Below, in pieces: positions 6,410 to 41,960 of a stretch of 64,000 nt of DNA; position 1 is the first letter of the stretch; every line of letters starts with the position of its first letter. The notes under the pieces were generated by a model, which was not told the DNA's origin, searched no databases, and was given only the letters and a program-made list of their open reading frames with translations. A program made the position numbers and the translations under genes. The stretch is from Oscillospiraceae bacterium (lineage in GTDB: Bacteria > Bacillota > Clostridia > Oscillospirales > Ruminococcaceae), in assembly GCA_045606725.1 (NCBI GenBank), contig JAZUSM010000119.1, positions 41,491 to 105,490 on the forward strand, written 5' to 3'.

Positions 6410-6425
6410 AGTTTTTTTCCTTTCT

Positions 6426-18354: not shown

Positions 18355-19311
18355 ATGACCGATGAAATAATCCGCAGACAGGTTCTTCCTGTTGCAAAGA
18401 AAATAAACGAGGAAGTCAAAAAAGCTGTTATAGGAAAAAATGATATTATTGTCAAGACCCAGCTTGCCATTATCGCTGGAGGGCACATTCTTCTCGACGA
18501 TATCCCCGGAGTAGGAAAGACGACCCTTGCCCTTGCTTTTTCCAAAGCTATGTCCCTTGACTATAAGCGTATGCAGTTTACTCCCGATGTACTTCCTGCT
18601 GATGTAACGGGTTTTACTGTTTACAACAAGCAGACAGAACGCTTTGAGTACAAGCCCGGTGCGGCGCTTTGCAGTCTGTTCCTTGCAGATGAAATAAACC
18701 GTACCTCCAGCAAGACTCAGAGTGCACTTCTTGAGGCGATGGAGGAAGGTTCTGTAACTGTTGACGGTGTTACACACGAGCTTCCCAAGCCGTTCATTGT
18801 TATTGCAACGCAGAACCCTATCGGTTCTGTCGGCACGCAGATGCTCCCCGAATCTCAGCTTGACCGTTTCATTGTCAGGCTGACAATGGGTTATCCTGAC
18901 CTTAACAGTGAGATACAGATTCTCAAGTCAAAAGGCTCAGACAAGCCTGCTGACAGCATCGTTCCTGTTGCAAATGCTGATGATGTGCTTATGCTTCGTG
19001 CGGCGGCTGAACAGATTTTCGTAGATGACCGTGTTTACAAATATATCGCTTCAATTTCGTCGGCAACCCGTACTCATCCTCAGATAAAACTCGGACTCAG
19101 TCCGAGAGGCTCGGTTGCCCTTGCGGCAATGGCCAAGGCTACTGCACTCCTAAGCGGACGTAGCTACGTTATTCCCGATGACGTAAAATACATTCTCAAT
19201 GATGTTGCTGAACACCGCATCATCATTTCTCCGAAAGCAAAGGCAGCAGGGGTAACTGCGGCTGATGTAATCCGTGACATAAGTGCACGCATACCCGCTC
19301 CGAAAATCTGA
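18355..19311 (+). CDS. MoxR-family AAA+ ATPase, copy 2 (YeaC-like)
   Basis: 318 aa with Walker A IPGVGKT, Walker B FLADEINR and ATQNP. By eye it is about half identical to copy 1. Confidence 0.9.
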   Translation: MTDEIIRRQVLPVAKKINEEVKKAVIGKNDIIVKTQLAIIAGGHILLDDIPGVGKTTLALAFSKAMSLDYKRMQFTPDVLPADVTGFTVYNKQTERFEYKPGAALCSLFLADEINRTSSKTQSALLEAMEEGSVTVDGVTHELPKPFIVIATQNPIGSVGTQMLPESQLDRFIVRLTMGYPDLNSEIQILKSKGSDKPADSIVPVANADDVLMLRAAAEQIFVDDRVYKYIASISSATRTHPQIKLGLSPRGSVALAAMAKATALLSGRSYVIPDDVKYILNDVAEHRIIISPKAKAAGVTAADVIRDISARIPAPKI

Positions 19312-23189: not shown

Positions 23190-24350
23190 ATGAATATAAA
23201 AAATCTGAAAAAGCTTAGTGCGGCATTTACTGCTGCAGTTATGCTGACTTCACTTGCCGGCTGTAACAAGGACGATACTCAACAGGAAGTTCCTGCTGAA
23301 ACTACGGTTACAGAAGCTGTTGTTGTACATGATGAGATACGGGATATTCCGTCCGTTGAACTTGTAAAGGAAATAAAAATCGGTTGGAGTCTTGGAAACA
23401 CTCTTGACTCAACTGCAACGGGAATTAATGCAGAAACTGCCTGGGGCAACGTGAAAACCACAAAGGAAATGATTACTGCTGTCAAGGACGCAGGCTTCAA
23501 CGCTATTCGTGTTCCTGTAACCTGGGGCACTCATATGGACGCTGAAAACAACGTTGATGAGGAATGGATGAACCGTGTTCAGGAAGTCGTTGACTACGCT
23601 TATTCTCAGGATATGTTTGTAATTCTCAACATTCATCATGAGGACTGGCACGACCCTTACTACGATACAGCTGACGCTTCAATTGCAAAGCTTAAGGCAC
23701 TCTGGACTCAGATAGGAACACGTTTTGCCGAATATGATGAGCGCCTTATTTTTGAGGGACTCAACGAACCGAGAATGAGAAACACAGGCTTTGAATGGAA
23801 CGGCGGAAACGAAGAGGGACATGACGTTGTAAATCAGTTAAACGCGGCTTTTGTTGAAACAATCCGAAGTCTTGGCGGAAACAATGAAAAACGTCATCTT
23901 ATGCTTCCCACATATGCCGCAAGCTCAACCGCTTCCGCAATTAATGATTATGTTCTCCCTGAGGGAGATAACAAGCTTATCGTTTCAATCCATGCTTATC
24001 TCCCTTATGCATTTGCCCTCGGCGGAAACCTTGACCAGCGTGAATTTACTCCTGAGGGAAACGGCAAAGAAATTGACAACCTTATGAACTCGCTCAAAAC
24101 TTCATTCATCGACAAGGGAATACCTGTTATAATCGGTGAAACAGGTGCAAGAAGCAAGGCTAACGAGGATATCCGTGCTGAATGGGCAACCTACTACATC
24201 AGCAAGGCAAAGGAAATCGGTATTCCATGCTTCATCTGGGATAACGGTGCTTTCAACGGCACAGGCGAAAACTTCGGCTTACTTAACCGTCTGACCTGCA
24301 CATGGAAATATCCTGCAATTATCGAAGGCTTCATGAAGGGTCTTGAATAA
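23190..24350 (+). CDS. GH5 endo-beta-1,4-glucanase (cellulase family A), lipoprotein
   Basis: 386 aa with lipobox LTSLAGC. GH5 motifs: GWSLGNTLD, acid/base in FEGLNEPR, nucleophile in IIGETGA. Confidence 0.85.
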   Translation: MNIKNLKKLSAAFTAAVMLTSLAGCNKDDTQQEVPAETTVTEAVVVHDEIRDIPSVELVKEIKIGWSLGNTLDSTATGINAETAWGNVKTTKEMITAVKDAGFNAIRVPVTWGTHMDAENNVDEEWMNRVQEVVDYAYSQDMFVILNIHHEDWHDPYYDTADASIAKLKALWTQIGTRFAEYDERLIFEGLNEPRMRNTGFEWNGGNEEGHDVVNQLNAAFVETIRSLGGNNEKRHLMLPTYAASSTASAINDYVLPEGDNKLIVSIHAYLPYAFALGGNLDQREFTPEGNGKEIDNLMNSLKTSFIDKGIPVIIGETGARSKANEDIRAEWATYYISKAKEIGIPCFIWDNGAFNGTGENFGLLNRLTCTWKYPAIIEGFMKGLE

Positions 24351-28465: not shown

Positions 28466-28505
28466 GATATAAAAACAGTCCTTGATTTTGTATCAAGGAC
28501 TGTTT
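28466..28505 (-). terminator. Rho-independent terminator after the giant flagellin gene
   Basis: Reverse strand: AAACAGTCCTTGA-tacaaaa-TCAAGGACTGTTT followed by TTTTATATC, 23 nt after the stop at 28528. Confidence 0.85.
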
Positions 28506-28527: not shown

Positions 28528-31500
28528 CTAAGCAATGATATTGAGCACAGACTGCTGGTGGTTTCTGAAATGACCGAAAATAGTCTGCTGAGTCTGATTG
28601 AGAATCTGGTGCTTGGTGTAGTCGGCATACTGCTTTGCCATATCGGCGTCACGGATCTGCGATTCAGCTGCAGAAAGATTTTCGATATAATTCTGACGAT
28701 TTGCAAGTGCATGCTCCGAACGGTTTTCATAAGCACCGCTTACTGCACGCTGCTTTGAAAGGTAATCATTTGCAAGGTTAAGACGATTGATTGCCTTTGA
28801 AGCTCTTTCGGCAGTTGTTACACCTGTTGTGTTGATTCTCATGAGATGCTCGTCAACACGGGTCTTTTCGTACATGATATAGTCATCTGTACGACGTCCC
28901 TTGTGGATACCGATATCAGTATCTTCTTCTCTGCTTTCGCCGCCGTAGATAATATCATTTGCAGCTTTGCCTGTAAACTTATCAAAGACAAAATCGCCGT
29001 TTTCAATTGTGTAGAACATAATTCTGCCGTCACGGTGTCCAACTCTTACATCTGAGCTTGCAGCTGAAAAGCTGTTGTTCAGCTGTTCAGCAAGCTCCTC
29101 CACAGTATATTCGCCGTGAGGAATATCTACATTTGCAGGCACGCCGTCAAGCTCAAAACCAAGAGTATCATTTTCATCATTGATTACGATACCGTCAGAA
29201 AGGTCAGGCTTGCCGTAGAATGTGGACGGCTGAGGTGAACGTGTTGCATCATAGAAAACTCTGTATGCGGAATTACCACGGATACCATCAATAATTGCTG
29301 TAGTTTTGCCGTTTCTTCCGTCATCTGGAAGCTTGCACCAGAGTACAAGCTTACCGGAGCTTGAAATACCTGTATTGTTTTCGGGAACGCCAAGCTCGGA
29401 AAGACCGATTGAAGCATTGAAGAAATCGTCAGGGAAGCTGTTTCCTGTGTAATCGGTAAGCTTTGCAAATTCTTCTCTGCCCTTCTGCTCGATTACGTTG
29501 GCAAGTTCCTTTTTGGTGTAGTCGCCTGCGGGAATTTTGAATTCGATAGTATGAGTCTGTCCGCCGTAGTTAAGGTCAAAAATCATTGTATCATTCAGAT
29601 CAGTGTAGATACAAACATCCTTGCCTGAAAGCTGTTCGTCCTTACTCATTGGTTCAAGGCTGTTTCTGCCGACAATGTAGGACAGTGTGCTGCCGAGGGA
29701 AGTTCCCTTGGTTTCTGTATGGCGGTTTATGCTTTCATAAGCTGCATTCTGGAACACCTTATCGAAAAGACGACCGCTGAAGTTGCTGATTTTGCGTGTA
29801 TCAGACGGTGTAGCGCCCTTGATAGAAATTGTTCCGTTATTGTTTGAAACAATAAGCTGGTCAGTACCGAGAGCATTGTCAATTGCTGTCTGGAGTGCTG
29901 TTTTCAGCGTATCGGCTGTATAAGTTCCTGCAGGAATTGAAATATTCACTCTGCCTGAAACAAGACTTCCGTTTACATCTGTAGCATAATCAAAGGACAT
30001 CTCATTGTTGTAATCCTCGATTGTAATGCTTGTGATATAATTTCTGGAAGTGATTGTACATCTGCTGTCGTTTCTTGAAACAGTGCTTTCCTTTGCAACG
30101 TTGTTGGACTTACTGTAAATTTCGGAAGTATTTGCGCTGCTCATGGAAATATCTGCTGCAGCACCCTTTGTATCTGTAATGATTGTAAGAGTTGTTCCAG
30201 AAGCTGAAACAGTTGCGCCGCTGCCTGCAAAGCCAGCCTGAAGCTGGGAAACAAGGCTGTTCATGCCTGCATTACCCACATAATCGCCCTCTGCAAGGTC
30301 AAACTCAACTGTATTGCCGTTGATTGTAAGGGCAACGTGCTTGTTCTTGTCATTGACTTCAAGTCCATCACCGCTGAAAAGGGTATTGAACTTATTGTTT
30401 GTGAGAATTGCGGGGTAATAAACCTTATTTGTTGATGTGTCAATAGTACCGTTACTGCCTGCACTTGCCTTGGAAATATACTTATCAAGACCTGCTGTTC
30501 CGCCGAAGTTGCTGAGGGAATAGCCTTTACCGCCGTTCTTGGTGGTGAAGGTAAGACCCTTGCCCGATGCGTAGCTTACAGAAATGATATCCTTGAGTGC
30601 AGGGTCATTGCTGACAACATTGCTGATTGCCTGTGCACAGTCAGAAGCGGAATTGTAAGTACCGTCAGGAATAGTAATTGTAATATTCTTTGTTTCCGAC
30701 GGAGATTTGTAAGTAAAGGTTACTGTGTTATTTGCTGAAGTTACTGTCATAGGGAAATGGGAGTCAAAGCCTGCTGCTGTAACGGAAGCAGGTTCTTCAA
30801 TTTTACCTGTTGCAGGATTATAGTTCGGGTTGCCTGCTGTTTCCTTGACATTTTTGGTTTTATAGATATTGCAGTTGGTTTTTGCAGTATCAATTGTAAA
30901 GGAACCGCTTTCGGTAAGAGGTCCTTTGAAAACAAGGGATTTTCCTCCGCTTCCTACGGAAACGGTTGTCTTAGGATTGCCGCCGTCAGCTTCAGCAATT
31001 CTTGCGTTGAGTTCTGCAGCAATTGCTTCTGCGGAGGTATATGTGCCGCTTGTAAGGGTCAGGTCGTAATTTGTTGCACCTGCCTTGAAAACGAACTTAT
31101 TGTTTGTTCCGTCAATTGTATAAGGAAGCTGTGAAGCAACGTTAGGAATTGTCATTGAGGACGGTACATAAACTCTGTTGTGAGTTTCATCCACAACTGC
31201 ATCCGTTCTTGAAGCAACCGCATTCTTATATGCGGAATTTGCCATTGAACAGCTGCCTGTTGCAATCTGAACGCCGTCGCCCTTTTCAGTTGTTGTTACA
31301 ACAAGAGTATTGCCGTCAGCCTTGGCGGTAGCCTTGCCGTTAAGCTCCTTGTTGATTGCAGCAATAGCCTGTTCCTTGGTTGAACCCTTAGGAACTGTGA
31401 TATTGAATGCAGTTGAACCTGTTGTATCTGTTACAGAAAGGACAAGATTTACATCTCTGAGGGATTTGCCTGCTGCTGTAAACTGCGACAAAGCGTTTGT

Positions 31501-33606
31501 CATAGTCAGTGAAGCCGGGTACTTTTCAATTCTTTCATCACCAATGATGGACTCACTATCGTCGTACTCAACCTCATAGCCGTTTTTGATGGATGGAGTA
31601 ACGCTGTTATAGATAATATAATTCTGAGTAATCTGAGCGTTTGTTGTCACCTGATTTGAATATGTAACAACATCCGTTGTTGTACCTGCTGTGGAAGAAA
31701 CTGCCGGCTTACCTGATGGCATTGTTCCGGAGCCGCTTGCATAAGGTTTCTCGCTGCCCTTGTCAATTTCATAATTGTCTGTATAGTAAACGCCGCCTAT
31801 AAGGTTTGCATAACCGCTTGATGAGGAAGAAACCGAGAAAGACCTGATATCTGCGCCGCTGTATTCAATTGCTGAAAGCTTGATTGTACCGTCTACGGTA
31901 AATTTCAGCTTTGAAGAAAGGTCGGGATAATTTGCCGCAACCTGATTGTTAAGCTCATTCTGGAGAGAAGCTGCTGTATATGTTCCCTGAGGAACTGTCA
32001 CTGACATTGTCTTGTTTCCGCTGTCTGTTGCAACTGTGAATACAAGCTCATTTTCATTGGCAGGAACTTCAATTGAGCTGCCGAGATTTTTCTGTGCTGT
32101 AAGGCTTGCAGGACGGAAAGAAGATGTTGTCACGGACGGATTAAGCTTATTGAGGGTACCCTTGTCAAAGAGGTCATAAAGCATATATCCGCTTGGAGCA
32201 AGGCTTTCAACGAGGTCAATCTTGCACTTGTCACCGTACTGGTCGGACTTGATAACAAGAGTTCCCGAAGAACCGATTGCTGCTGTAAAAGGCAGGTCAC
32301 CAAGCTGTTCGTTAATTCTTGCTGCAAGGTCGGAAGGATTTGCGTATATTCTTTCATTTTCCGAGTCATCAAGGAGATTAATCTGAACTCTGCGTTTTTC
32401 GGCAGCATCATTTGCACCATACCAACTGAGGTCAAGGGTAAAGTGTTCGTTTCTGCCTCTTACGATTTCAGTATTTACGGGGATAACCTTCTTACCTGAG
32501 AGTACAGACTGAGTGTTATTTGTGTAGCCGTAATTTGCAATATCGTAAATCGGCGAGGATTTGTTATCCATTTTAAGGAAGTTCCCTGTCAGACCTGTGA
32601 TTGTTTCCTTGCAGGCAATACCAATAATCATGCCGCCTTTTGCATTTGTTTCAGGAACAGCCTTGATATCACCAGGGATACCTGATGCAGCAAACTTAGC
32701 GTTCATATGGTCGATAAGCTGGTCACGGGTATACTTTCCTGCGTCGAGGGTTACAGAATAAATTGTATCACTTTCTCCAAGGCGGAAAGACATAACATCG
32801 TTTTCGCCTGTGAAGATTTCGAGCTTTGCATTTTCGTGAACAAATGTTGTTACGCCGAGAAGATAACCGCTTTCAGAACCGATTGTTGCGTCATAGAAAA
32901 GAGTTGCGCCAGGGCCGCCTACATAGTCGATTTTACCGGGTTCAGACTGAATTGTGAATTCTCTGTTTTCATTTACACCGATAATAAGATTAGGAACTTT
33001 GTCATAAAGCTCTGTATCAATTACGTCAGCAAGCTCCTCTGCGCTGTATGTGCCGTAAGGAACATTGATTGTGTATTCCTTCTGCTGACCGTCGAGTGTA
33101 TAGCCGATAACAAGAGGCATATTCAGATCGTTTACAACAACAGCCTTATCATGAACGACTACGCCCTCGTTAAGACCGTAGGACTCAAGGTGCTTTTCAA
33201 AAAGAGAAAGCCCATTAAAATGTGAAGTATCGGTAATCTGACCGATTTCCTCAAGAAGCTGCTGATATTCAAGGTCGAGCGCACCTCTGTCAATGCTGTC
33301 ATAAGTGCCGTTAGCCGCCTGAACAGCAATTGTTTCAAGGCGGTGAATGATATTATGTATTTCCTGAGCGGAACCGTCAACGGAATGGAGATAGCTGATG
33401 CCGTCATTAAGGTTCTTGACGCCCTGGTCAAGACCTGCAATAATTCCGCGCATTTTTTCTGAAACAGCAAGTCCTGCCGCATCATCAGCAGCACGGTTAA
33501 CCTGATATCCGCTTGCAAGCTTTTCGAGAGATTTCTGGAGCTTGGAATTGGTTTTTCTGTTTCTGTTAACAAGAAAATCAGCGCCTTTGAAATTTGTAAC
33601 GGTCAT
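28528..33606 (-). CDS. fliC: Giant flagellin (1692 aa): canonical flagellin N- and C-terminal helical domains flanking a central region of about 1450 aa
   Basis: N-terminus: LEKLASGYQVNRAADDAAGLAVSEKMRGIIAGLDQGVKNLNDGISYLHSVDGSAQEIHNIIHRLETIAVQAANGT. C-terminus: LSKQRAVSGAYENRSEHALANRQNYIENLSAAESQIRDADMAKQYADYTKHQILNQTQQ. Both match conserved D0/D1 flagellin segments. SD GGAGGA is 7 nt from the ATG and a sigma-28 promoter lies upstream. Confidence 0.85.
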   Translation of the reverse strand: MTVTNFKGADFLVNRNRKTNSKLQKSLEKLASGYQVNRAADDAAGLAVSEKMRGIIAGLDQGVKNLNDGISYLHSVDGSAQEIHNIIHRLETIAVQAANGTYDSIDRGALDLEYQQLLEEIGQITDTSHFNGLSLFEKHLESYGLNEGVVVHDKAVVVNDLNMPLVIGYTLDGQQKEYTINVPYGTYSAEELADVIDTELYDKVPNLIIGVNENREFTIQSEPGKIDYVGGPGATLFYDATIGSESGYLLGVTTFVHENAKLEIFTGENDVMSFRLGESDTIYSVTLDAGKYTRDQLIDHMNAKFAASGIPGDIKAVPETNAKGGMIIGIACKETITGLTGNFLKMDNKSSPIYDIANYGYTNNTQSVLSGKKVIPVNTEIVRGRNEHFTLDLSWYGANDAAEKRRVQINLLDDSENERIYANPSDLAARINEQLGDLPFTAAIGSSGTLVIKSDQYGDKCKIDLVESLAPSGYMLYDLFDKGTLNKLNPSVTTSSFRPASLTAQKNLGSSIEVPANENELVFTVATDSGNKTMSVTVPQGTYTAASLQNELNNQVAANYPDLSSKLKFTVDGTIKLSAIEYSGADIRSFSVSSSSSGYANLIGGVYYTDNYEIDKGSEKPYASGSGTMPSGKPAVSSTAGTTTDVVTYSNQVTTNAQITQNYIIYNSVTPSIKNGYEVEYDDSESIIGDERIEKYPASLTMTNALSQFTAAGKSLRDVNLVLSVTDTTGSTAFNITVPKGSTKEQAIAAINKELNGKATAKADGNTLVVTTTEKGDGVQIATGSCSMANSAYKNAVASRTDAVVDETHNRVYVPSSMTIPNVASQLPYTIDGTNNKFVFKAGATNYDLTLTSGTYTSAEAIAAELNARIAEADGGNPKTTVSVGSGGKSLVFKGPLTESGSFTIDTAKTNCNIYKTKNVKETAGNPNYNPATGKIEEPASVTAAGFDSHFPMTVTSANNTVTFTYKSPSETKNITITIPDGTYNSASDCAQAISNVVSNDPALKDIISVSYASGKGLTFTTKNGGKGYSLSNFGGTAGLDKYISKASAGSNGTIDTSTNKVYYPAILTNNKFNTLFSGDGLEVNDKNKHVALTINGNTVEFDLAEGDYVGNAGMNSLVSQLQAGFAGSGATVSASGTTLTIITDTKGAAADISMSSANTSEIYSKSNNVAKESTVSRNDSRCTITSRNYITSITIEDYNNEMSFDYATDVNGSLVSGRVNISIPAGTYTADTLKTALQTAIDNALGTDQLIVSNNNGTISIKGATPSDTRKISNFSGRLFDKVFQNAAYESINRHTETKGTSLGSTLSYIVGRNSLEPMSKDEQLSGKDVCIYTDLNDTMIFDLNYGGQTHTIEFKIPAGDYTKKELANVIEQKGREEFAKLTDYTGNSFPDDFFNASIGLSELGVPENNTGISSSGKLVLWCKLPDDGRNGKTTAIIDGIRGNSAYRVFYDATRSPQPSTFYGKPDLSDGIVINDENDTLGFELDGVPANVDIPHGEYTVEELAEQLNNSFSAASSDVRVGHRDGRIMFYTIENGDFVFDKFTGKAANDIIYGGESREEDTDIGIHKGRRTDDYIMYEKTRVDEHLMRINTTGVTTAERASKAINRLNLANDYLSKQRAVSGAYENRSEHALANRQNYIENLSAAESQIRDADMAKQYADYTKHQILNQTQQTIFGHFRNHQQSVLNIIA
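28926..33159 (-). repeat. Divergent tandem protein modules (about 11) in the flagellin central region
   Basis: The motif [IVL]x[IVL]PxGxY[TS]xxxLxxx[IL]N recurs with the Gly at aa 185, 290, 541, 854, 982, 1107, 1227, 1361 and 1498, plus degenerate copies near aa 421 and 741. Spacing is 105-137 aa, except one 200-aa gap. aa 541 and 1227 were checked against the DNA. Confidence 0.7.
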
Positions 33607-33651
33607 TTCAGCTTCCTCCTTTCCACATTATTCAACAAACTTACAATATAT

Positions 33652-33678
33652 TTATCGGCACAACTGACAAAAACTTTA
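33652..33678 (-). promoter_or_regulatory. Sigma-28 (FliA/SigD)-type promoter: TAAA-15 nt-GCCGATAA
   Basis: Reverse strand: TAAA (33678-33675), exactly 15 nt of spacer, then GCCGATAA (33659-33652). This is an exact match to the flagellar sigma-factor consensus, 45 nt upstream of the flagellin ATG. Confidence 0.7.
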
Positions 33679-33777: not shown

Positions 33778-34884
33778 TCAATTGCCGCGCCACTCGGCAT
33801 TTTCAGTTCTTGCGTTAATAAGCTCCTTTATGTATTTTCCTGTTTCACTGAGGAAAATATCCTGAGCGAAAATACTGGAGGTTTCGTCCTTGTCATTTAC
33901 AGCCCAGTTACAGCTTGAAATATTATTCTCATCCATCCACTTGAACCATTCCTCGGTAGAAGTTTTGTCAATGCTTCCGTTTCCGTCTGCATTTACGCTT
34001 CCCCACTCGGTAACAAAAAGCGGAATTCCCTTTTCAAGCGCCTTATCGGCATTATCCCTGAGCCACTGCTTATGAGTACCTGCATAGAAATGGAGTGTAT
34101 ATGCTATATTTTCACCATCAACAGGATTACCTGCTGCAGAAAGGACATCCTGTGACCATGTCGGTGAGCCAACAATAACAAGATTATCGGAATGCTTTCT
34201 TATAGCAGGAATAACCTTTTCCGCATATTCCTTTACTGTATCCCAGCTTATCTGGGTAGGTTCGTTGAAAACTTCAAAAATAACATTATCATAGCTTCCG
34301 TATTTTTCAGCAAGCTGTTCAAAATATGCAATCGCTTCATCAGGATTATTATGGGCACCGTGAGAATGCCAGTCAATAATTACATAAACTCCTCTTTCGA
34401 TAGCCTGTTCAATTACGTCCTCAATAAGCGGCTCGCAGGATTTGTCATACGGTACACCGTTATCCTGAATTCCGTATGAACAGCGCACAATCTCGCAGTT
34501 ATAATCATCAACAAGGTAATCAACATAATCTGCTGTATAATATTTCTGTGACCAGTTGCTCCAGAAAAAGCTCATTCCTGTGACACGGACGGTTTCACCA
34601 GTATTCTTTCCCACAAGCTTATTTCCGTCAGCAATTATTTCACCGTAGTATGCAACAGGAGTATTTTCAGAAATTTCAGACTCGTCTGATGTAGTTTCTT
34701 CTGTAATTTCTTCCGCAGCTTCTGATGTTGCTTCTGGTTTTACCGTTTCCTCTGAAACGGAAATTGTTTCTGCGGTAGTTACAGTAAGCTGTTCGGTTGT
34801 CTGTATAGAAGCATCAGGAACCTCCGCCGCATTACAGCCTGTCAGCATTGCGCACATAACTAATATTATCAGGGCTTTTTTCAT
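33778..34884 (-). CDS. GH5 endoglucanase, lipoprotein with a Thr/Glu-rich linker
   Basis: 368 aa with lipobox MLTGC. Motifs: acid/base in FEVFNEP, nucleophile in FVTEWGS, and HFY. Confidence 0.85.
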   Translation of the reverse strand: MKKALIILVMCAMLTGCNAAEVPDASIQTTEQLTVTTAETISVSEETVKPEATSEAAEEITEETTSDESEISENTPVAYYGEIIADGNKLVGKNTGETVRVTGMSFFWSNWSQKYYTADYVDYLVDDYNCEIVRCSYGIQDNGVPYDKSCEPLIEDVIEQAIERGVYVIIDWHSHGAHNNPDEAIAYFEQLAEKYGSYDNVIFEVFNEPTQISWDTVKEYAEKVIPAIRKHSDNLVIVGSPTWSQDVLSAAGNPVDGENIAYTLHFYAGTHKQWLRDNADKALEKGIPLFVTEWGSVNADGNGSIDKTSTEEWFKWMDENNISSCNWAVNDKDETSSIFAQDIFLSETGKYIKELINARTENAEWRGN

Positions 34885-35004: not shown

Positions 35005-36693
35005 TTATCTTACACCCTTATAAACACGCCCTGTTTTCAGGCGCTCTTCAAATTCGCTGCACGGAAGAGGCTTGTCAAACAGATATCCCTGAGCCATACT
35101 GCATTGAAAATCCTCCAGCAGGTCAGCCTGAATATTTGTTTCAACGCCCTCAGCAACAACCTTCATATCAAGCTCATTTACCATATTTACGATGTTTCTG
35201 ATTACGACCTCATCGGATTTCTTTTTATCGCCGAGATTATCGAGGAAGGACTTGTCCAGCTTGATAATATCAACATCAAGGTCTTTCAGCAAATTCAACG
35301 AGCTGTAGCCTGTACCGAAGTCATCAATAGAAGTGCTTACACCGAATTTTTTCATTTTTCTTACGAACTCAGCCAGAGCCTCATAATCCTCATAACCTGA
35401 TGACTCAGTAAGTTCTACCTCTACGTATGACGGGTCAACACCATGTTTGTTTATAATTTCAATAATTTTATCTGCGAAATCAACATCATGCAGGTGAAGC
35501 TTTGAGAAATTCGTTGAAACTCTTACAGGGACAATTCCCATGTTAATCCAGCGCTTTATATCTGCACAAACCCTGTCAAGCACATAAAAATCAAGACGGC
35601 ATATTGACCCTTCGTGTTCAAGGACAGGAATAAATTCAGCAGGCGGAACAATACAGCCGTTTCTTATCCATCTTGTAAGAGCTTCGCAGCCGCACAGGCT
35701 GTTATCTGCAAGTCCTACCTTAGGCTGATAGAATACCACAAATTCTTCCTTGCGCAAAGCTTCAGGGAAAATAGTTGAGATTTCATTTGCCTTAAAGGTC
35801 TTGTCCATCATGTCAGCTCTGAAGTAGACATTATCTGTTCTGCTAACATTCTTGGCTATACCGAGAGCTGTAGAAGCTGAATTTATGGCATTATTTGCTG
35901 TATCATTCTCAACAGTCATGTATATGCCTGTTCTTGAAGAAATATTTATAGAACGTTTTTCTCCTGCCAGTTCATTTTCAAACTGCATATCCGACACAAA
36001 CTCAAGCAGTTCATTGACACGTTCTTTTCGTATTACAGTGCAGAAGTTATCACCGCCTGGACGTGAAACTACACCATCATCTTTTACAAACTTCATCAGT
36101 CTGTGTGCACAGCGTTTAAGCACGATATCAGCCTGCTTCTCACCTATAAGGCGGTTGACATATCTGAAATTCTTGAGATTAACAAAAATAACTGCATAAT
36201 CCTTGAAATCCCCTGAATTTACAAGCTTTTCACAGTGCATTACAAACCCATGCATATTTAATGCACCTGTAGTAATGTCAATAGAGCTTATTTTGTTCAT
36301 TACGCCAAGCATCTGAACGCGTCCGCCGAGGATGAAAAGGTTTTCAGCTATAAATCTGATATCCTTTAAATCTTCTTCATTCCACTTACAGCCTTTTTCA
36401 GGATAAAAGGACATACTCAGGGTTCCGTTTTCACCTGTGCGGAAAATAAAGGTTTCGGGACAATCGTCATACCCAGCTTCAGAAGTATATAATATCACTG
36501 TCTGATTAATTCCATCAATATTGAACGGTGTTTTAGGTGCCATAAAAGTTTCGGAGCTACGTCCTATCTTCAATTCCTGTGCAACCTCTGTTATTGCTGA
36601 AGAAACAAAAGAAACAAATTCGTCCATGCTAAATGTCATACCGTTGATTTTGTAAAAGAAATCCCTGTACAGTTCACTGCATATCTTACTCAT
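35005..36693 (-). CDS. c-di-GMP phosphodiesterase: unknown N-terminal domain, degenerate GGDEF domain, intact EAL domain
   Basis: 562 aa. The GGDEF signature reads GGDNF (nt 36043-36057) and the upstream DxD/FK segment reads VNLKNFRYVN. EAL motifs are intact: CEALTRW, DDFGTGYSS, KLDKSF, EGVET, QGYLF. Confidence 0.85.
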   Translation of the reverse strand: MSKICSELYRDFFYKINGMTFSMDEFVSFVSSAITEVAQELKIGRSSETFMAPKTPFNIDGINQTVILYTSEAGYDDCPETFIFRTGENGTLSMSFYPEKGCKWNEEDLKDIRFIAENLFILGGRVQMLGVMNKISSIDITTGALNMHGFVMHCEKLVNSGDFKDYAVIFVNLKNFRYVNRLIGEKQADIVLKRCAHRLMKFVKDDGVVSRPGGDNFCTVIRKERVNELLEFVSDMQFENELAGEKRSINISSRTGIYMTVENDTANNAINSASTALGIAKNVSRTDNVYFRADMMDKTFKANEISTIFPEALRKEEFVVFYQPKVGLADNSLCGCEALTRWIRNGCIVPPAEFIPVLEHEGSICRLDFYVLDRVCADIKRWINMGIVPVRVSTNFSKLHLHDVDFADKIIEIINKHGVDPSYVEVELTESSGYEDYEALAEFVRKMKKFGVSTSIDDFGTGYSSLNLLKDLDVDIIKLDKSFLDNLGDKKKSDEVVIRNIVNMVNELDMKVVAEGVETNIQADLLEDFQCSMAQGYLFDKPLPCSEFEERLKTGRVYKGVR

Positions 36694-37020: not shown

Positions 37021-39087
37021 TTATTCACTTCTTTTTTCTGCACCGTTTATAACAATTCTTGCTCGTCCCCCATCAATTCTGATTTTGTCTTCACTGATGT
37101 AGTCGGCATAATCCGTTTTTGTAACCAGATCAATAGAAGAATCCGAATTAACAAGTTGAATTTCCGAGTCGCCGCTGAGGCTTCCAAGTGCAAGCGCATT
37201 GTCACCCTTTACAACTACATTCATACTTGCCTTATCAAGTATGAAGCGAGTTGCACCTTCAAGTGCTGCAACCGCTGAACAACGGTCAGCGATAATATTG
37301 AATTTTGTACTTGCCTCGCAAATTACAACATCGCAGTTTCCGCCCTTAAGAGTACCGATACCAACTGTATCTGTACCCGAAAGGTAAAGCTTCAACGCAC
37401 TGTGACGTACACTGACTCTGCAGTTTCCATCAAGCGTACCTATTGCCACACCATGTTCAGATGAAATCTCGACTGAAATATCACAGGCAAACAATTCAAG
37501 ATCGGTATCAGTATCAATTGCTCCTATTCCGACACCCATATAGCCAGCCATATTGATAAAGAACTGACCCTTTAATATACTTATCTTTCCGCCGAGTCCC
37601 GAACCTATGCCCACTCCGCTTGCAGCATGATTATCGATTGTTACACCCTGTCTGAAGACAAGTTCACCATGTCTTGACTCACCGTCATTTCCTATTGCAT
37701 AATAACCCGAGCCATTTATGAAAACCGAGAGTCCTCCGTCGCCGCTTACTGTAAGCTTTGAGCTTTCCGGTACTTTTATTCCGCCGTTTTTCAGCTGATT
37801 GTTACCAGAAAGGACAAGCTCAACATCACAGTTTTCACCTATATTGATACATGGGCGGTTCTTTTCGTTGGAAAGCATTGCATTGTCAAGGATGATGCTT
37901 CCCCTGAAATCGTTTGCAACGTCAATATGGATTTTTGTATCAATTTCCAGAGAACCTGCGACGATTATGTCACCGTTTCCATCTCCGCCTACCATCACGC
38001 ACTTATATCCGTCCTTTTCAATCCTTTCAAGAAGCACTCTTTCTGACTTCACGGCATTATAGACCTGAAGCTTTTTACCGTCCTCACGTTCCTGCCGATA
38101 GCGCTTGATTTCCTGTCTTATTTCACGGGGAATTGACTCTGCAATCACTGCTGACGGTCTTGCTGTATAATAGCCTTGGATAAGGTCAACACCAAGCTTG
38201 ACAACTGTATGTAATTCCTCAGATGTTTCGACACCCTCAGCAAGTGCAAGAATTCCGTTATCATGACAGAAATCTATTATCTCACGCACAAAATAACGCT
38301 TCTGCCTGTTGTTATGTATATCACTCAGCAGTGAACGGTCTATTTTTACGTAATGAGGCATATATCTCAGCAGATTGTGCACGTTTGAATATCCCGTACC
38401 GTAATCGTCAATTGCAATCTGCACATTCATGCCGTCATACATTTCCCTGATTTCACCGAACTCGCTTTCACCCATTTCCGACTGCTCGGTCATTTCAACA
38501 ACAACGCTGTCCGGATGCTTTTCCATAAAAGCCTTTGTTTTGCTGAGATTTTCATCATTCAGCCTTGCCCTCGGAATACTGTTGATAAAAACCTTTCTTC
38601 CGCCGAATTCTTCTTTCTTGCTGTCAATAATACCAAGAACATTGAGAAAGGTTGCTTTTTCAATATCGTCAAGCCGTTCCATTATTTCAGCATATTTTAT
38701 AATATGATACGGACTCGGACACACACTGCTCCTAGGACGCATAAGCGCTTCGTAGGAATAAATTTTTCCGTCAGTAGCTCTTACTATCGGCTGAAAATGG
38801 TAATCAAAGAGATTTTCGTCAATAATCCTGCGCACTTCGGCAAGCTCTGCACGTTCCTGTTCTGTTCTCACAGCAAATCTGCACTCATTCGTATCGTTCT
38901 CTCTGAGTGTTGCCAGTTCATTTCCGATATTCCATATATCTTCAAGCACGTTTTTCCACTCCGCGCTTCCATCTGTATCAAGTGAAGGGAAATATTTACC
39001 TGTAACAGCTTCAAGTTCCTTTAAGCTATTTATGCCTTTAAGTTCTGAAAAAAGCTCATGCAGAAGTTTCAATTTCATTTCGTTCAT
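37021..39087 (-). CDS. EAL-domain c-di-GMP phosphodiesterase fused to a C-terminal repeat domain of about 330 aa (predicted beta-solenoid), cytoplasmic
   Basis: 688 aa with no signal peptide or TM. EAL motifs: YEALMRP, INSIP, VVEMTE, DDYGTGYSN, KIDRSL, AEGVET, QGYY. From about aa 360 the sequence is Gly/Ile/Val-rich with short recurring strands. Confidence 0.8.
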   Translation of the reverse strand: MNEMKLKLLHELFSELKGINSLKELEAVTGKYFPSLDTDGSAEWKNVLEDIWNIGNELATLRENDTNECRFAVRTEQERAELAEVRRIIDENLFDYHFQPIVRATDGKIYSYEALMRPRSSVCPSPYHIIKYAEIMERLDDIEKATFLNVLGIIDSKKEEFGGRKVFINSIPRARLNDENLSKTKAFMEKHPDSVVVEMTEQSEMGESEFGEIREMYDGMNVQIAIDDYGTGYSNVHNLLRYMPHYVKIDRSLLSDIHNNRQKRYFVREIIDFCHDNGILALAEGVETSEELHTVVKLGVDLIQGYYTARPSAVIAESIPREIRQEIKRYRQEREDGKKLQVYNAVKSERVLLERIEKDGYKCVMVGGDGNGDIIVAGSLEIDTKIHIDVANDFRGSIILDNAMLSNEKNRPCINIGENCDVELVLSGNNQLKNGGIKVPESSKLTVSGDGGLSVFINGSGYYAIGNDGESRHGELVFRQGVTIDNHAASGVGIGSGLGGKISILKGQFFINMAGYMGVGIGAIDTDTDLELFACDISVEISSEHGVAIGTLDGNCRVSVRHSALKLYLSGTDTVGIGTLKGGNCDVVICEASTKFNIIADRCSAVAALEGATRFILDKASMNVVVKGDNALALGSLSGDSEIQLVNSDSSIDLVTKTDYADYISEDKIRIDGGRARIVINGAEKRSE
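37024..38010 (-). repeat. Coding region for imperfect short repeats of the C-terminal domain ([VAL]-[GA]-[IAL]-[GL] turns)
   Basis: YAIG (aa 463), VGIG (492), VGIG (529), VAIG (547), VGIG (575), VAAL (606) and LALG (632) are spaced 18-37 aa apart. Each is followed by a short x-L-x-G or D-G turn. Confidence 0.5.
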
Positions 39088-39270: not shown

Positions 39271-40002
39271 CTATGCCTTTGTTCTGAAAAACCTCTCGCG
39301 GTAATTTTTCGGCGTATAACCCGTATGCTTCTTAAAAACCTGTATAAAATGGCTTTCTGAACTGAAACAAAGATATTCTGAAATTTCAATGCAGGAATAC
39401 TCTGAAAATTTCAGCATGTTTTCAGCCGCTTCAATACGCTTTTTGACTATGTATCCTGACACTGTCATGCCTGTTTCCTTGTGAAAAAGCTTTGACAGAT
39501 AGGCAGGACTGAGCGATACCTTTTCGGCAAGCATTTCAAGAGTAATCTTCTTATGGAGATTATCGTAAATATAATCAAGGCACATTGTTATTGCCTTAGG
39601 ATAACGATTCTGCTTGCGTATGATATTCATCCGCTGTGCATAATCGTCCACAACCTCACGGTGAAGAAGATTAATTTGCTCCTCGGTACGGCATTTGTCA
39701 ATGCTTTGTATATATATATCACTCAGATTATATGCGGCTTCCATTTCCATTCCGCCCTCTATACAGTATCGTGTTATAAATGCAACCGATATAATCAGAT
39801 GATATTTCAGATTACGCAGACTGTCCTCGCTGAGTTTTCCCATATCCTCACTGTTGAACGGTTTGAACAGTCGCTTTGTTTCTTCGACATCACCTTCTTT
39901 TATGCTATGGAAAAAAGCCATTTCACGTTCATATGAAAGATGGGAAATACTGTATTCACGATTGATAAATTCAATATGTGAAAGCTTTTTGCTTACGTTC
40001 AT
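39271..40002 (-). CDS. AraC-family transcriptional regulator
   Basis: 243 aa with a C-terminal double HTH (LSPAYLSKLFHKETGMTVSGY...FSSESHFIQVFKKHTGYTPKNYR). It lies 26 nt downstream of the GH16 gene. Confidence 0.85.
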   Translation of the reverse strand: MNVSKKLSHIEFINREYSISHLSYEREMAFFHSIKEGDVEETKRLFKPFNSEDMGKLSEDSLRNLKYHLIISVAFITRYCIEGGMEMEAAYNLSDIYIQSIDKCRTEEQINLLHREVVDDYAQRMNIIRKQNRYPKAITMCLDYIYDNLHKKITLEMLAEKVSLSPAYLSKLFHKETGMTVSGYIVKKRIEAAENMLKFSEYSCIEISEYLCFSSESHFIQVFKKHTGYTPKNYRERFFRTKA

Positions 40003-40028: not shown

Positions 40029-40808
40029 TTATTCAAACGGTGTAAATCTTACCCACTCATACTCTGCAGAAAGCGGCATATTTGTATCGTCAAATGCGTT
40101 AAGCCATCCGTCAACACCTTTTCCGCACCATGCATTCATCATAATCTTACCCTCGGTAACAGGAATGCTTTCGGCAGCACTGTACACCTCAACACCGTCA
40201 ACAAACCACACAATTCTATCCTTATGCCACTCAAATGCGTACGTATGGAAATCCTCTGCCGCATCAAAACCAAGGTCGTGCATATATTCATGATTACCCC
40301 TGCTGTCAGTAAAATAATTGAACTGGACCTTTGTTGTATCCTTGCCGAGAATTTCAACATCGATTTCATCCCACGGATTTCCGTCAGATGGACCTGTATA
40401 GGTGAAGAATGAAGATACAACGCCGTCATTCTTTATAGCCTTCATTGATACCTCATAGCGTCCGTATCCATAAAATCCTGTGCTTCTGAATTCTCCTCCT
40501 GAATAAGGAATTGTTCCGTCAGAAAGCAAATCCTTGTCAATTATAAGCTGCATTCTGCCGTCCTTGAAGGTAACGTTGCTTCTGCGCCATGTTACATTGA
40601 ACATACTTCCGTTTGTCCAGCCGTCAGCACACTCCCACCCGTCAGGCATTCCGTTTGTAAACTCGGCATATACAGACCCGTCATCAACTGCTTCTTCAAC
40701 AGAAACAGCGGTTGTTGTTTCACTCATGATTTCATCGGCTTCCTTTCCGCAGGCTGTAAGCAGCATTGCTGATAATAATATGGCTGAAATAAATCTTATT
40801 CTTTTCAT
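40029..40808 (-). CDS. GH16 beta-glucanase (lichenase/laminarinase type), lipoprotein
   Basis: 259 aa with lipobox LLTAC and the catalytic motif WDEIDVEILG (ExDxE). Confidence 0.85.
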   Translation of the reverse strand: MKRIRFISAILLSAMLLTACGKEADEIMSETTTAVSVEEAVDDGSVYAEFTNGMPDGWECADGWTNGSMFNVTWRRSNVTFKDGRMQLIIDKDLLSDGTIPYSGGEFRSTGFYGYGRYEVSMKAIKNDGVVSSFFTYTGPSDGNPWDEIDVEILGKDTTKVQFNYFTDSRGNHEYMHDLGFDAAEDFHTYAFEWHKDRIVWFVDGVEVYSAAESIPVTEGKIMMNAWCGKGVDGWLNAFDDTNMPLSAEYEWVRFTPFE

Positions 40809-41006: not shown

Positions 41007-41960
41007 ATGTTAAAGGAAAAAGGCTTTTATAAGGGAATAAATCTCGGCGGCTGGTTTTCTCAGTGCGATTACAGCGAAGACCGCCTGAACAATTTTATTA
41101 CTGAAGCTGATTTTGAAAAAATCAGTCAATGGAAAATCGATCATGTCAGAATCCCTGTTGACTACAATATTTTTGAAAATGCTGACGGCACATACAAAAA
41201 TGACGGCTTTGAAAGAATTGACCGTGTGTTTGAGCTTTGCGAAAAATACGGACTTAATGCCGTTCTTGACCTGCACAAAACAGCAGGATTTTCCTTTGAT
41301 TATTACGGTGAAAGCGAAAGCGGCTTTTTTGACAGCGAGGATTTACAGGAACGCTTTTACAAGCTGTGGGAAAAATTTGCTGTCAGATACGGCAACCGCC
41401 CTGACAGTATTGCTTTTGAGCTTCTTAATGAGGTTACCGATAAGGAATATATCGACAAGTGGAACAGCATTGCTGAAAACTGCATAAAGCGCATAAGGGT
41501 TTACGCACCTAACACGATTATTCTTGTTGGAAGCTACTGGAACAACAGTGCTGAAGCTGTAAAAGATCTTACAAAACCTTTTGATGATAAGGTTGTTTAT
41601 AATTTCCACAGCTATGATCCGCTGAAATTCACTCATCAGGGCGCATACTGGACAAACATGATTGATCCGAATGAACGTATTGCTTTTGAAGACAGCGGAG
41701 TTACTCCCGAATACTTTGAAAACTTCTTTGCTTCTGCAATTGAAACAGCAAAGGCAAACGGTGCAGTCCTCTACTGCGGCGAATACGGTGTCATTGACAA
41801 GGTTTCACCTGAGGATACGCTTGAATGGTTCAAATGTATCAATGCTGTATTTAAAAAATACAATATCGCAAGAAGCGCATGGAGCTACAAGGAAATGGAC
41901 TTCGGACTTTCAGATGCAAGACTTGACAACATTCGTGATGAACTTTTGAAATACTTGTAA
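41007..41960 (+). CDS. GH5 glycoside hydrolase without a signal peptide (probably cytoplasmic)
   Basis: 317 aa with GINLGGWF, acid/base in FELLNEV and nucleophile in YCGEYGV. Confidence 0.8.
   Translation: MLKEKGFYKGINLGGWFSQCDYSEDRLNNFITEADFEKISQWKIDHVRIPVDYNIFENADGTYKNDGFERIDRVFELCEKYGLNAVLDLHKTAGFSFDYYGESESGFFDSEDLQERFYKLWEKFAVRYGNRPDSIAFELLNEVTDKEYIDKWNSIAENCIKRIRVYAPNTIILVGSYWNNSAEAVKDLTKPFDDKVVYNFHSYDPLKFTHQGAYWTNMIDPNERIAFEDSGVTPEYFENFFASAIETAKANGAVLYCGEYGVIDKVSPEDTLEWFKCINAVFKKYNIARSAWSYKEMDFGLSDARLDNIRDELLKYL

What the first reader, a model, noticed from the sequence alone, without database searches (positions are those of the whole stretch)
29115..33054. The flagellin outer region is built from about 11 divergent tandem modules sharing a P-x-G-x-Y-T ... 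L ... L-N signature
I read these copies: INVPYGTYSAEELADVID, VTLDAGKYTRDQLIDHMN, VTVPQGTYTAASLQNELN, ITVPKGSTKEQAIAAIN, LTLTSGTYTSAEAIAAELN, ITIPDGTYNSASDCAQAIS, FDLAEGDYVGNAGMNSLVSQLQ, ISIPAGTYTADTLKTALQTAID, FKIPAGDYTKKELANVIE and VDIPHGEYTVEELAEQLN, plus a degenerate copy (YANPSDLAARINEQL). Spacing is 105-137 aa, with one 200-aa gap that may hide another copy. The signature resembles the short flagellin/hook IN motif, which normally occurs in 1-3 copies. Here it appears to mark a whole repeated domain. The copies are highly diverged at the DNA level, so this is ancient duplication and not recent slippage.
Basis: seen in the sequence. Interest (0 to 1): 0.7.

Follow-up and report, generated by a model that had tools for sequence, protein, structure and literature searches.

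The report
Giant flagellin with eleven tandem domains
A 1692-residue flagellin from an uncultured gut Oscillospiraceae bacterium carries 11 anciently duplicated copies of one ~100-residue domain between its filament-forming ends, and belongs to a large family of such multi-domain flagellins that I did not find described in the papers searched.

Summary
The ORF at 28528..33606 (-) is a flagellin with intact Flagellin_N and Flagellin_C ends. It has a sigma-28-type promoter and its own terminator.

Its 1471-residue middle contains exactly 11 homologous modules of about 95-105 aa.
- Profile-profile comparison gives >=90% probability for 35 of 55 module pairs, all in register. Scrambled controls reach at most 18%.
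- Leave-one-module-out HMMs recover every copy, including the "degenerate" one, at 24-61 bits. Shuffled sequence reaches at most 6.8 bits.
- AlphaFold2 gives all 11 the same order of secondary-structure elements.

The 200-aa gap does not hide a twelfth copy. It holds an unrelated beta-rich insert.

The module is a divergent Flagellin_IN-type domain. Its fold matches FliD D2/D3 and the single outer domain of Vibrio and Pseudomonas flagellins.

There is no DNA-level repeat. All 11 modules keep their order in orthologues down to 33% identity, under purifying selection.

A search of 1.84 billion proteins found 1312 relatives. Most top hits are flagellins with 3-12 modules, including some from cultured Bacillaceae. 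In these, the end modules keep their position and the middle modules vary.

I classify it as a new variant of a known kind. How such a filament is built and what the coat does remain inferred.

The parts
33652..33678 (-). Sigma-28 (FliA/SigD)-type promoter, TAAA-N15-GCCGATAA, about 46 nt upstream of the start codon
   Evidence: It is the only match in the 64-kb window (0.01 expected by chance). The same motif lies 50-70 nt upstream of the gene in orthologous loci L003, L004, L011, L012, L013, L027 and L036. Sequence read. The consensus itself is from my own knowledge.
33615..33620 (-). Ribosome-binding site AGGAGG, 8 nt before the ATG at 33606
   Evidence: Read directly.
28528..33606 (-). Flagellin ORF, 1692 aa, 182 kDa
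   Evidence: ORF. Pfam Flagellin_N and Flagellin_C. Best NCBIfam match is flagellin Hag at E 2.4e-48, and FlgL models score far lower.
33190..33606 (-). N-terminal D0/D1 helical region (aa 1-139)
   Evidence: PF00669 matches aa 14-138, E 8.2e-31. dN/dS is 0.02-0.05 against close orthologues.
32866..33147 (-). Module 1 (aa 154-247)
   Evidence: HMM domain at 63.9 bits, 32 bits in the leave-one-out test. Secondary structure b-b-b-b-helix-b-b-b. dN/dS about 0.04. It is the first module in 95% of distant relatives.
32509..32826 (-). Module 2 (aa 261-366)
   Evidence: 53.9 bits, 32 bits leave-one-out. Same secondary-structure order. dN/dS 0.03-0.04.
32155..32469 (-).
   Evidence: 45.1 bits, 24 bits leave-one-out (E 1.9e-9 for one sequence). 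hhalign >=90% to modules 2, 7 and 9. Same secondary-structure order with a longer loop before the helix.
31765..32079 (-). Module 4 (aa 510-614)
   Evidence: 60.8 bits, 49 bits leave-one-out. hhalign 97.9% to module 9 over 106 columns.
31519..31764 (-). Non-homologous beta-rich insert (aa 615-696), poorly conserved; this is the '200-aa gap'
   Evidence: No similarity to any module (hhalign <=3%). The model has only short strands here, at mixed confidence. It is the least conserved stretch of the orthologue alignment.
31201..31455 (-). Module 5 (aa 718-802)
   Evidence: 49.2 bits, 30 bits leave-one-out. The orthologous module in P0021 passes the Pfam Flagellin_IN cutoff at 30.9 bits.
30838..31125 (-). 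Module 6 (aa 828-923)
   Evidence: 56.2 bits, 42 bits leave-one-out. hhalign 98.9% to module 7 over 119 columns. Secondary structure.
30448..30753 (-). Module 7 (aa 952-1053)
   Evidence: 75.0 bits, 61 bits leave-one-out. Secondary structure.
30091..30369 (-). Module 8 (aa 1080-1172)
   Evidence: 44.3 bits, 28 bits leave-one-out. The orthologous module in P0035 passes the Flagellin_IN cutoff at 27 bits.
29734..30030 (-). Module 9 (aa 1193-1291)
   Evidence: 73.5 bits, 58 bits leave-one-out. Secondary structure.
29320..29619 (-). Module 10 (aa 1330-1429), with an insert after the helix
   Evidence: 57.9 bits, 36 bits leave-one-out. Secondary structure. dN/dS 0.03-0.04.
28918..29196 (-). Module 11 (aa 1471-1563)
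   Evidence: 65.0 bits, 47 bits leave-one-out. It is the last module in 99% of distant relatives.
28531..28776 (-). C-terminal D1/D0 helical region (aa 1611-1692)
   Evidence: PF00700 matches aa 1612-1690, E 2.3e-13. dN/dS 0.03-0.04.
28471..28502 (-). Intrinsic terminator: 10-bp GC-rich hairpin (28502-28493 pairing with 28485-28476) followed by TTTTT
   Evidence: Read directly. Together with the promoter it makes the gene a single-gene transcription unit.

Best explanation
This is a genuine late-class flagellar filament protein. Its hypervariable middle is a chain of 11 homologous, independently folding modules of about 100 residues, plus one unrelated beta-rich insert. Each module has the order short strand, two long strands, short strand carrying G-x-Y, a 12-16-residue helix ending in L-N/I-N, then three strands. 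The modules are divergent Flagellin_IN-type domains. They share a fold with FliD D2/D3 and with the single outer domain of Vibrio and Pseudomonas flagellins.

Inferred mechanism. The protein is exported unfolded through the flagellar type III channel and polymerises through its normal D0/D1 ends. Both ends of the array must attach to D1, so the chain has to run out from the filament core and back. Modules 1-2 and 10-11 would then sit next to the core, and modules 3-9 would form the exposed periphery. Together the modules would form a thick protein coat of about 157 kDa per subunit. By volume, the filament would be at least about 26 nm across, and probably 35 nm or more. Array length changes over evolution by gain and loss of modules in the middle, at the outer tip of the hairpin.

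The coat's purpose is not shown. The most likely roles are covering the conserved core against phages, proteases and host recognition, stiffening the filament in viscous gut contents, or both.
For: Shown by tool results:
- Flagellin identity: Flagellin_N and Flagellin_C domains. Flagellin models far outscore FlgL models.
- Regulation: a unique sigma-28-type promoter, conserved in orthologues, and a private terminator.
- Module homology: hhalign gives 35 of 55 pairs >=90% in register, with clean controls. Leave-one-out HMMs score 24-61 bits against 6.8 for shuffles.
- Same secondary-structure order in all 11 modules, in models with mean pLDDT 78.5 and 75.9.
- Fold: H. pylori FliD 6iwy is the top PDB hit for both models (E 1.4e-4 and 5.7e-5, probability 0.99). 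V. cholerae flagellin outer domains align over 115-117 columns at rmsd 3.2-3.4 A, probability 1.0. Serratia FliD D2-D3 reaches probability 0.97.
- Flagellin_IN is the only Pfam family that recurs among the modules, in 9 of 44.
- Age and selection: no DNA repeat. There are 47 full-length orthologues of 1688-1761 aa, in 39 species-level genomes. dN/dS over the outer region is 0.09-0.11.

Support for the hairpin model:
- dN/dS is 0.03-0.06 for modules 1, 2 and 10, as low as in D0/D1. It is 0.09-0.21 (mostly 0.11-0.17) for modules 3-9.
- In 80 distant flagellins with 7-11 modules, the first module best matches module 1 in 95%, the second matches module 2 in 94%, and the last matches module 11 in 99%. 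The middle modules vary.

Support for a filament role:
- The 8-module relative in cultured Robertmurraya andreesenii lies just upstream of yjfB-flaG-fliD-fliS-fliT. That is where the filament gene hag sits in Bacillus (my own knowledge).
Against: - No experiment shows that any member of this family is assembled into a filament.
- Domain-domain packing is not predicted with confidence (pTM 0.35-0.36). The hairpin arrangement therefore rests only on topology, selection gradients and positional conservation.
- Module folds could not be superposed on each other, because no coordinates were available. 'Same fold' rests on sequence homology and secondary-structure order.
- The Foldseek queries were multi-domain models, so TM-scores are low (0.1-0.36) and E-values modest.
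- The window protein itself does not reach the Pfam Flagellin_IN threshold.
- No flagellar genes lie next to the gene in the window or in L041.
- Whether the genome also has a short flagellin is unknown.
- The diameter estimate uses textbook filament geometry recalled from memory: 4.7 A axial rise per subunit and a 60 A core radius.
Confidence: 0.7

Rival explanations
1. The array is mainly an adhesin. The modules would bind plant fibre, mucus glycans or other cells, so the filament works as a long sticky appendage rather than only as a shielded propeller. This concerns function and is compatible with the same architecture.
For: The middle modules evolve 3-4 times faster than the end modules and vary in number and type between lineages, as expected for surfaces that meet ligands. 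The gene sits among GH5, GH16, GH2 and GH113 carbohydrate-degradation genes in the window and in L041. FliD, which carries the same module, is reported to mediate adherence in some bacteria (abstract of PMC7316729).
Against: No module matches any carbohydrate-binding or adhesin family in Pfam. Glycoside hydrolase neighbours are expected anywhere in a fibre-degrading gut genome. The Bacillaceae relatives are not gut fibre degraders as far as I know, which I did not check.
Confidence: 0.25
2. The protein is not the main filament subunit. It could be a minor flagellin restricted to one part of the filament. It could also be exported by the flagellar apparatus and released as a secreted or decoy protein.
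For: The gene is isolated from other flagellar genes in Oscillospiraceae. Exporting about 20,000 copies of a 182-kDa unfolded chain is costly. Many bacteria have several flagellins, of which only one is essential (for example Vibrio, PMC13106801).
Against: The D0/D1 ends are under the strongest purifying selection (dN/dS 0.02-0.05), as expected if polymerisation matters. The promoter is the late-flagellar type. In R. andreesenii the 8-module gene sits next to flaG-fliD-fliS-fliT, the position of hag in Bacillus by my own knowledge. Giant flagellins of gamma-proteobacteria do form thick filaments (PMC6248924).
Confidence: 0.2
3. Only a short sequence motif recurs, by convergence or chance, and the segments between the motifs are unrelated.
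For: Pairwise identity between modules is only 10-23%. BLASTP of the region against itself finds nothing beyond the self-match.
Against: Profile alignments extend over 80-119 columns in register. Controls are clean. Leave-one-out HMMs cover 80-100 residues of each module. The secondary-structure order is identical in all 11.
Confidence: 0.02
4. The repeat is a recent slippage product or an assembly artefact.
For: None found.
Against: There is no DNA-level repeat. Length and module order are the same in 47 orthologues from independent assemblies.
Confidence: 0.01

Closest known systems
Pfam PF07196 Flagellin_IN ('flagellin hook IN motif')
   Same: The strand, G-x-Y turn and helix ending in I-N/L-N, plus the following strand, align to the 55-position model. 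It is the only Pfam family that recurs among the modules: 9 of 44, best E 1.8e-6. One orthologous module in each of P0021 and P0035 passes the cutoff. As with Flagellin_IN, the module also occurs in FliD and FlgK proteins and in an FlgL-like protein.
   Different: The Pfam model covers only about half of the ~100-residue module. The window protein has no hit at E<=1, and the consensus scores 17 bits against a 22.7-bit cutoff. Here there are 11 copies in one protein.
FliD cap protein D2/D3 domains (and D4/D5 in H. pylori): PDB 6iwy, 5h5t, 5h5w, 5xlj, 6sih, 9gnz
   Same: 6iwy is the best PDB fold match for both halves of the array (E 1.4e-4 and 5.7e-5, probability 0.99). Serratia D2-D3 reaches probability 0.97. 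The sequence profile also finds the module in FliD proteins.
   Different: No sequence-level match to any solved structure (best E 0.03). FliD has 2-4 such domains, some nested inside others, not 11 in a row. TM-scores are low because the queries were multi-domain models.
Single outer (D2) domain of Vibrio cholerae FlaA-D (9n8g, 9n8h, 9n8a, 9p7r) and Pseudomonas aeruginosa FliC (4nx9)
   Same: One module superposes on the Vibrio outer domain over 115-117 columns at rmsd 3.2-3.4 A, probability 1.0, 15-17% identity. 4nx9 aligns over 103 columns, probability 0.87.
   Different: Those flagellins are about 380-490 aa with one copy. This one has 11 copies plus an insert.
Giant flagellins of Oceanospirillales (Bermanella, Oleibacter), PMC6248924
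   Same: Over 1000 aa, with a hypervariable region enlarged by internal domain duplication. These are shown to form thick filaments. The paper raises the same 'out-and-back' topology question for tandem domains.
   Different: Those have two tandem 'DE' regions plus a new insert, in gamma-proteobacteria. Here there are 11 modules, in Bacillota. Homology between the DE region and this module was not tested.
Geovibrio thiophilus flagellin D4/D5, PMC11532411
   Same: The authors relate outer domain D4 to FliD D2 and describe D5 as a duplication of D4. So FliD-like domains recruited and duplicated in a flagellin have a precedent.
   Different: That protein is 793 aa, with two such domains, one nested in a loop of the other. 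The paper calls it the largest flagellin structure determined. The present protein is more than twice as long, with tandem rather than nested copies.
Phage virion proteins with arrays of a similar domain (BFVD: baseplate J-like A0A6J5KUV1, Myoviridae tail sheath, putative penton of MELD virus)
   Same: Foldseek aligns over 1126 columns at E 5.7e-9, so there are multi-domain arrays of the same fold. A single 113-aa viral protein matches with target-normalised TM-score 0.70 and rmsd 3.4 A. The PDB sequence search gives weak hits to phage sheath proteins (E 0.03-0.1).
   Different: These are not flagellar proteins. The sequence relationship is not significant, so this may be a shared fold rather than shared ancestry.

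Membership tests
Bacterial flagellin (FliC/Hag) | N-terminal and C-terminal helical D0/D1 regions (PF00669 and PF00700) | tested here: met
   PF00669 at 107 bits and PF00700 at 50.7 bits, both above their cutoffs. Flagellin Hag model at E 2.4e-48, against FlgL at 1.3e-18.
Bacterial flagellin (FliC/Hag) | Late-class (sigma-28/SigD) expression | tested here: met
   TAAA-N15-GCCGATAA lies 46 nt upstream, is unique in the window, and is conserved in 7 orthologous loci. This is a consensus match only; no transcript data.
Bacterial flagellin (FliC/Hag) | Polymerises into the filament | not testable with these tools
   Indirect support only: strong purifying selection on D0/D1, and the relative in R. 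andreesenii lies next to flaG-fliD-fliS-fliT.
Giant flagellins (over 1000 aa, PMC6248924) | Length over 1000 aa with an enlarged central region | tested here: met
   1692 aa, with a 1471-aa central region.
Giant flagellins (over 1000 aa, PMC6248924) | Homology to the Oceanospirillales DE region | not tested
Pfam PF07196 Flagellin_IN | Score at or above the 22.7-bit gathering cutoff | tested here: not met
   No hit at E<=1 for the window protein. No hit in the six window modules scanned individually, and the module consensus scores 17 bits. The cutoff is met only by single modules of orthologues P0021 (30.9 bits) and P0035 (27 bits). Nine of 44 modules match at E<=0.1.
FliD D2/D3-like fold | Significant structural match of a module to solved FliD domains | tested here: inconclusive
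   6iwy is the top hit with probability 0.99 for both models. The queries were 688- and 798-residue multi-domain models, so TM-scores are 0.1-0.36 and rmsd values are large. No single-module search could be run.
Tandem-repeat domain array | All units homologous over their whole length, with the same fold | tested here: met
   hhalign with controls, leave-one-out HMMs, and identical secondary-structure order in all 11. Three-dimensional superposition between modules was not possible.

The most novel reading that the evidence does not exclude
These proteins define an undescribed, widespread class of 'polymodular' flagellins in Bacillota. In this class a FliD-like or Flagellin_IN-like domain is strung 3-12 times between the D1 arms. 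The modules next to the core are fixed, and the array grows or shrinks at the distal tip of an out-and-back hairpin. The resulting filaments would be wrapped in a protein coat several times heavier than the core, and would be the thickest unsheathed flagella known. The same module also decorates phage baseplate, sheath and penton proteins, which could mean domain exchange between phages and the flagellum they often target.
Probability: 0.4. Interest if true: 0.75.

Novelty: new variant of a known kind. Interest (0 to 1): 0.62.

Why it matters
Flagellin outer domains are the most variable part of a very well-studied machine. According to PMC11532411, the largest flagellin structure solved has 793 residues. 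Internal duplication has been described for two copies only (PMC6248924, PMC11532411).

An 11-copy array raises several concrete questions:
- How a tandem chain satisfies the out-and-back topology of flagellin.
- How a 182-kDa unfolded chain is exported and folded at the filament tip.
- What a coat of about 157 kDa per subunit does to filament mechanics.
- How such a coat affects recognition by phages and by the host.

Relatives exist in cultured Bacillaceae: an 8-module flagellin in Robertmurraya andreesenii and a 4-module one in Salibacterium aidingense. These questions can therefore be tested directly by cryo-EM and genetics.

The carriers of the 11-module form are uncultured Oscillospiraceae and related Clostridia MAGs, several labelled as from ruminant and human guts, where flagellins are major immune targets.

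Tried and rejected
- BLASTP of the central region against itself found only the self-match. The modules are too diverged for pairwise BLAST.
- My first phmmer comparison used overlapping segments for modules 1 and 2, so that pair's E-value is inflated. I replaced it with non-overlapping profile comparisons.
- Pfam and NCBIfam on the whole protein annotate only the two ends.
- A twelfth copy in the 200-aa gap is rejected.
- A sequence-profile search of the PDB found nothing significant.
- A search for the module elsewhere in the window, over all six frames, found none.
- Neighbouring genes gave no functional clue. They encode cellulases, GH16, EAL and GGDEF-EAL proteins, a P-type ATPase, a shikimate operon and MoxR ATPases.
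- Five literature searches found no description of many-copy tandem modules in flagellins. The library lacks most subscription journals, so this absence is weak evidence.
- I could not obtain model coordinates or predicted aligned error. Module-to-module superposition and inter-module packing therefore remain untested.
- Both structure-prediction jobs went on covering the whole array, so no clean single-module Foldseek search was possible.
Full report
**What is there**

The finding lies inside one ORF, window 28528..33606 on the minus strand. It encodes 1692 aa, about 182 kDa.
- Pfam recognises only the two ends: Flagellin_N at aa 14-138 (E 8.2e-31) and Flagellin_C at aa 1612-1690 (E 2.3e-13).
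- NCBIfam ranks flagellin models far above hook-associated FlgL models: Hag at E 2.4e-48 against FlgL at 1.3e-18.
- A sigma-28/SigD-type promoter, TAAA-N15-GCCGATAA, lies at 33678..33652, 46 nt upstream of the ATG. It is the only match in the 64-kb window, where 0.01 is expected by chance.
- The same motif recurs 50-70 nt upstream of the gene in seven orthologous loci.
- An AGGAGG ribosome-binding site precedes the ATG. A GC-rich hairpin with a T-run follows the stop codon.

So the gene is a single-gene, late-flagellar-type transcription unit.

**Checking the observation**

All 11 quoted strings are present at the stated spacings. The question was whether more than a short motif is repeated.

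I collected 47 full-length orthologues of 1688-1761 aa, at 90% down to 33% identity, and aligned them with the window protein. I cut the alignment into 11 module blocks and compared all blocks by profile-profile alignment.
- 35 of 55 pairs have >=90% probability. Every module has at least two such partners.
- All alignments are in the same register. The longest cover 106-119 columns.
- With reversed or shuffled columns, none of 220 comparisons reaches 50%. The maxima are 18% and 2.2%.

An HMM built from 275 module sequences finds exactly 11 domains in the window protein. HMMs built without any copy of a given module still detect that module at 24-61 bits over 80-100 residues. The best score in 200 shuffled sequences is 6.8 bits.

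The consensus is I....N..l.F.l.......y.itIP.GtY.t..eLa.aIN..l.......ltv.....G..L.i.t...G....is.

The 200-aa gap holds no copy. The profile of aa 612-700 matches no module (<=3%).

**Structure**

Two AlphaFold2 runs on 15-sequence alignments covered the whole array:
- aa 140-827, mean pLDDT 78.5;
- aa 803-1600, mean pLDDT 75.9.

Every module shows the same order of elements:
- a short strand,
- two long strands,
- a short strand at the G-x-Y turn,
- a 12-16-residue helix,
- three strands,
- often a short helix.

Module 10 has an extra insert after the helix. The gap region is modelled as short beta strands only.

Inter-domain packing is not confident (pTM 0.35-0.36). I had no access to coordinates, so "same fold" rests on homology plus secondary-structure order.

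**What the module is**

Foldseek against the PDB puts H. pylori FliD (6iwy) first for both models, at E 1.4e-4 and 5.7e-5 and probability 0.99.
- Other FliD D2-D3 structures follow.
- The outer domain of V. cholerae flagellins aligns over 115-117 columns at rmsd 3.2-3.4 A, probability 1.0.
- P. aeruginosa FliC also matches.

A sequence-profile search of the PDB finds nothing significant.

Against Pfam:
- the module consensus gives Flagellin_IN at 17 bits, below the 22.7-bit cutoff;
- single modules of two orthologues pass the cutoff;
- scanning 44 modules one by one, Flagellin_IN is the only family that recurs, in 9 of 44 with best E 1.8e-6.

So the module is a divergent Flagellin_IN-type domain. 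The Pfam model covers about half of it.

**Age and selection**

There is no DNA-level tandem repeat. Modules share only 10-23% identity with each other. All 11 are retained in order in orthologues from 39 species-level genomes. These are all uncultured Oscillospiraceae, Ruminococcus, Huintestinicola or Clostridia MAGs, and several are labelled as from goat, deer or human gut.

dN/dS against the closest orthologues:

| Region | dN/dS |
|---|---|
| Whole outer region | 0.09-0.11 |
| Modules 1, 2 and 10 | 0.03-0.06 |
| D0/D1 ends | 0.02-0.05 |
| Modules 3-9 | 0.09-0.21 (mostly 0.11-0.17) |

**The wider family**

A profile of the module was searched against 1.84 billion representative proteins. 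It found 1312 proteins at E<=1e-3 and 137 at E<=1e-30.

Of the 147 best new hits, 102 carry both flagellin ends. Most of the others carry one end, or neither, and are probably gene fragments.

Module counts among the 102 complete flagellins:

| Modules | 3 | 4 | 5 | 6 | 7 | 8 | 9 | 10 | 11 |
|---|---|---|---|---|---|---|---|---|---|
| Proteins | 1 | 5 | 3 | 8 | 7 | 25 | 8 | 20 | 25 |

Named members include:
- Robertmurraya andreesenii, 1215 aa, 8 modules;
- Salibacterium aidingense, 734 aa, 4 modules;
- a Heliobacteriaceae MAG, 876 aa, 5 modules.

In R. andreesenii the gene lies just upstream of yjfB-flaG-fliD-fliS-fliT. That is where hag sits in Bacillus (my own knowledge).

The module also occurs in FliD and FlgK proteins and in an FlgL-like protein.

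I labelled each module of 80 distant flagellins with 7-11 modules using module-specific HMMs.
- The first module best matches module 1 in 95%.
- The second best matches module 2 in 94%.
- The last best matches module 11 in 99%.
- The middle labels vary, and labels 1 and 10 almost never appear in the middle.

**How it most likely works**

Shown: the flagellin ends, the promoter type, the module homology, the common secondary structure, the fold relatives, and the selection and position gradients.

Inferred:
- The chain leaves D1, runs outward and returns.
- Modules 1-2 and 10-11 therefore pack near the core, and modules 3-9 form the exposed, evolvable periphery.
- Arrays change length at the distal tip.
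- The outer region is 157 kDa per subunit. With an axial rise of about 4.7 A per subunit and a core radius of about 60 A (textbook values from memory), it needs a filament at least about 26 nm wide if solid, and about 34-52 nm at 20-50% packing.

The function of the coat is unknown. Shielding, stiffening and adhesion are all open.

**Comparison with what is known**

- Giant flagellins and two-copy duplications are published (PMC6248924).
- A FliD-like domain recruited into a flagellin and duplicated once is published, in a 793-aa protein described as the largest flagellin structure solved (PMC11532411).
- I found no description of long tandem arrays of this module. The paper library is incomplete, so this is weak evidence.

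I therefore rate it a new variant of a known kind. It is a real and striking architecture built from a known domain type, with no evidence of a new mechanism.

Noticed in passing
model of window aa 803-1600; proteins P0162 and P0163: The same fold appears as multi-domain arrays in phage virion proteins. BFVD hits include a baseplate J-like protein (1126 aligned columns, E 5.7e-9), a Myoviridae tail sheath and a putative penton. Two very large hits of the module profile lack flagellin ends and may be virion proteins: P0162 (5374 aa, 26 matched stretches; too long for the Pfam scan) and P0163 (2684 aa, 9 stretches; no Pfam family).
   Followed up: partly
proteins P0169, P0182, P0191, P0174, P0184 and P0196: The module also occurs in several copies in FliD cap proteins, in FlgK hook-associated proteins and in an FlgL-like protein. 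It is therefore shared by flagellin, FliD, FlgK and an FlgL-like protein.
   Followed up: partly
window 33652-33678 (-): An exact sigma-28/SigD consensus promoter lies in front of a flagellin gene that is otherwise isolated from flagellar genes. It is conserved in orthologous loci.
   Followed up: yes
window 23190-24350 (+), 33778-34884 (-), 40029-40808 (-), 41007-41960 (+): Three GH5 cellulase genes and one GH16 gene surround the flagellin gene, and an AraC-type regulator lies at 39271-40002 (-). An orthologous locus (L041) also has GH2, GH113 and GH5 genes nearby. This may simply reflect a fibre-degrading genome.
   Followed up: no
window 35005-36693 (-) and 37021-39087 (-): Two c-di-GMP-related proteins lie just upstream of the flagellin region. 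The first looks like a GGDEF-EAL protein from its translation; it was not scanned against Pfam. The second is a 688-aa protein with an EAL domain. They could be motility regulators. This was not examined.
   Followed up: no
window 5480-6487 (-) and 18355-19311 (+): There are two MoxR-type AAA_3 ATPase genes. The second is followed by an unannotated 392-aa ORF and an 859-aa transglutaminase-like protein.
   Followed up: no
window 31519-31764 (-), aa 615-696 of the flagellin: A poorly conserved beta-rich insert, unrelated to the modules, sits between modules 4 and 5 near the middle of the array. Its origin and role are unknown.
   Followed up: partly
window flagellin aa ~700-717, 805-826, 939-950 and 1054-1077: Modules 4-8 share a further N-terminal element, 'P-[AS]-x-[LMV]-T ... 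F', modelled as a strand plus a short helix. For these modules the repeat unit fills almost the whole 113-128-aa period.
   Followed up: partly
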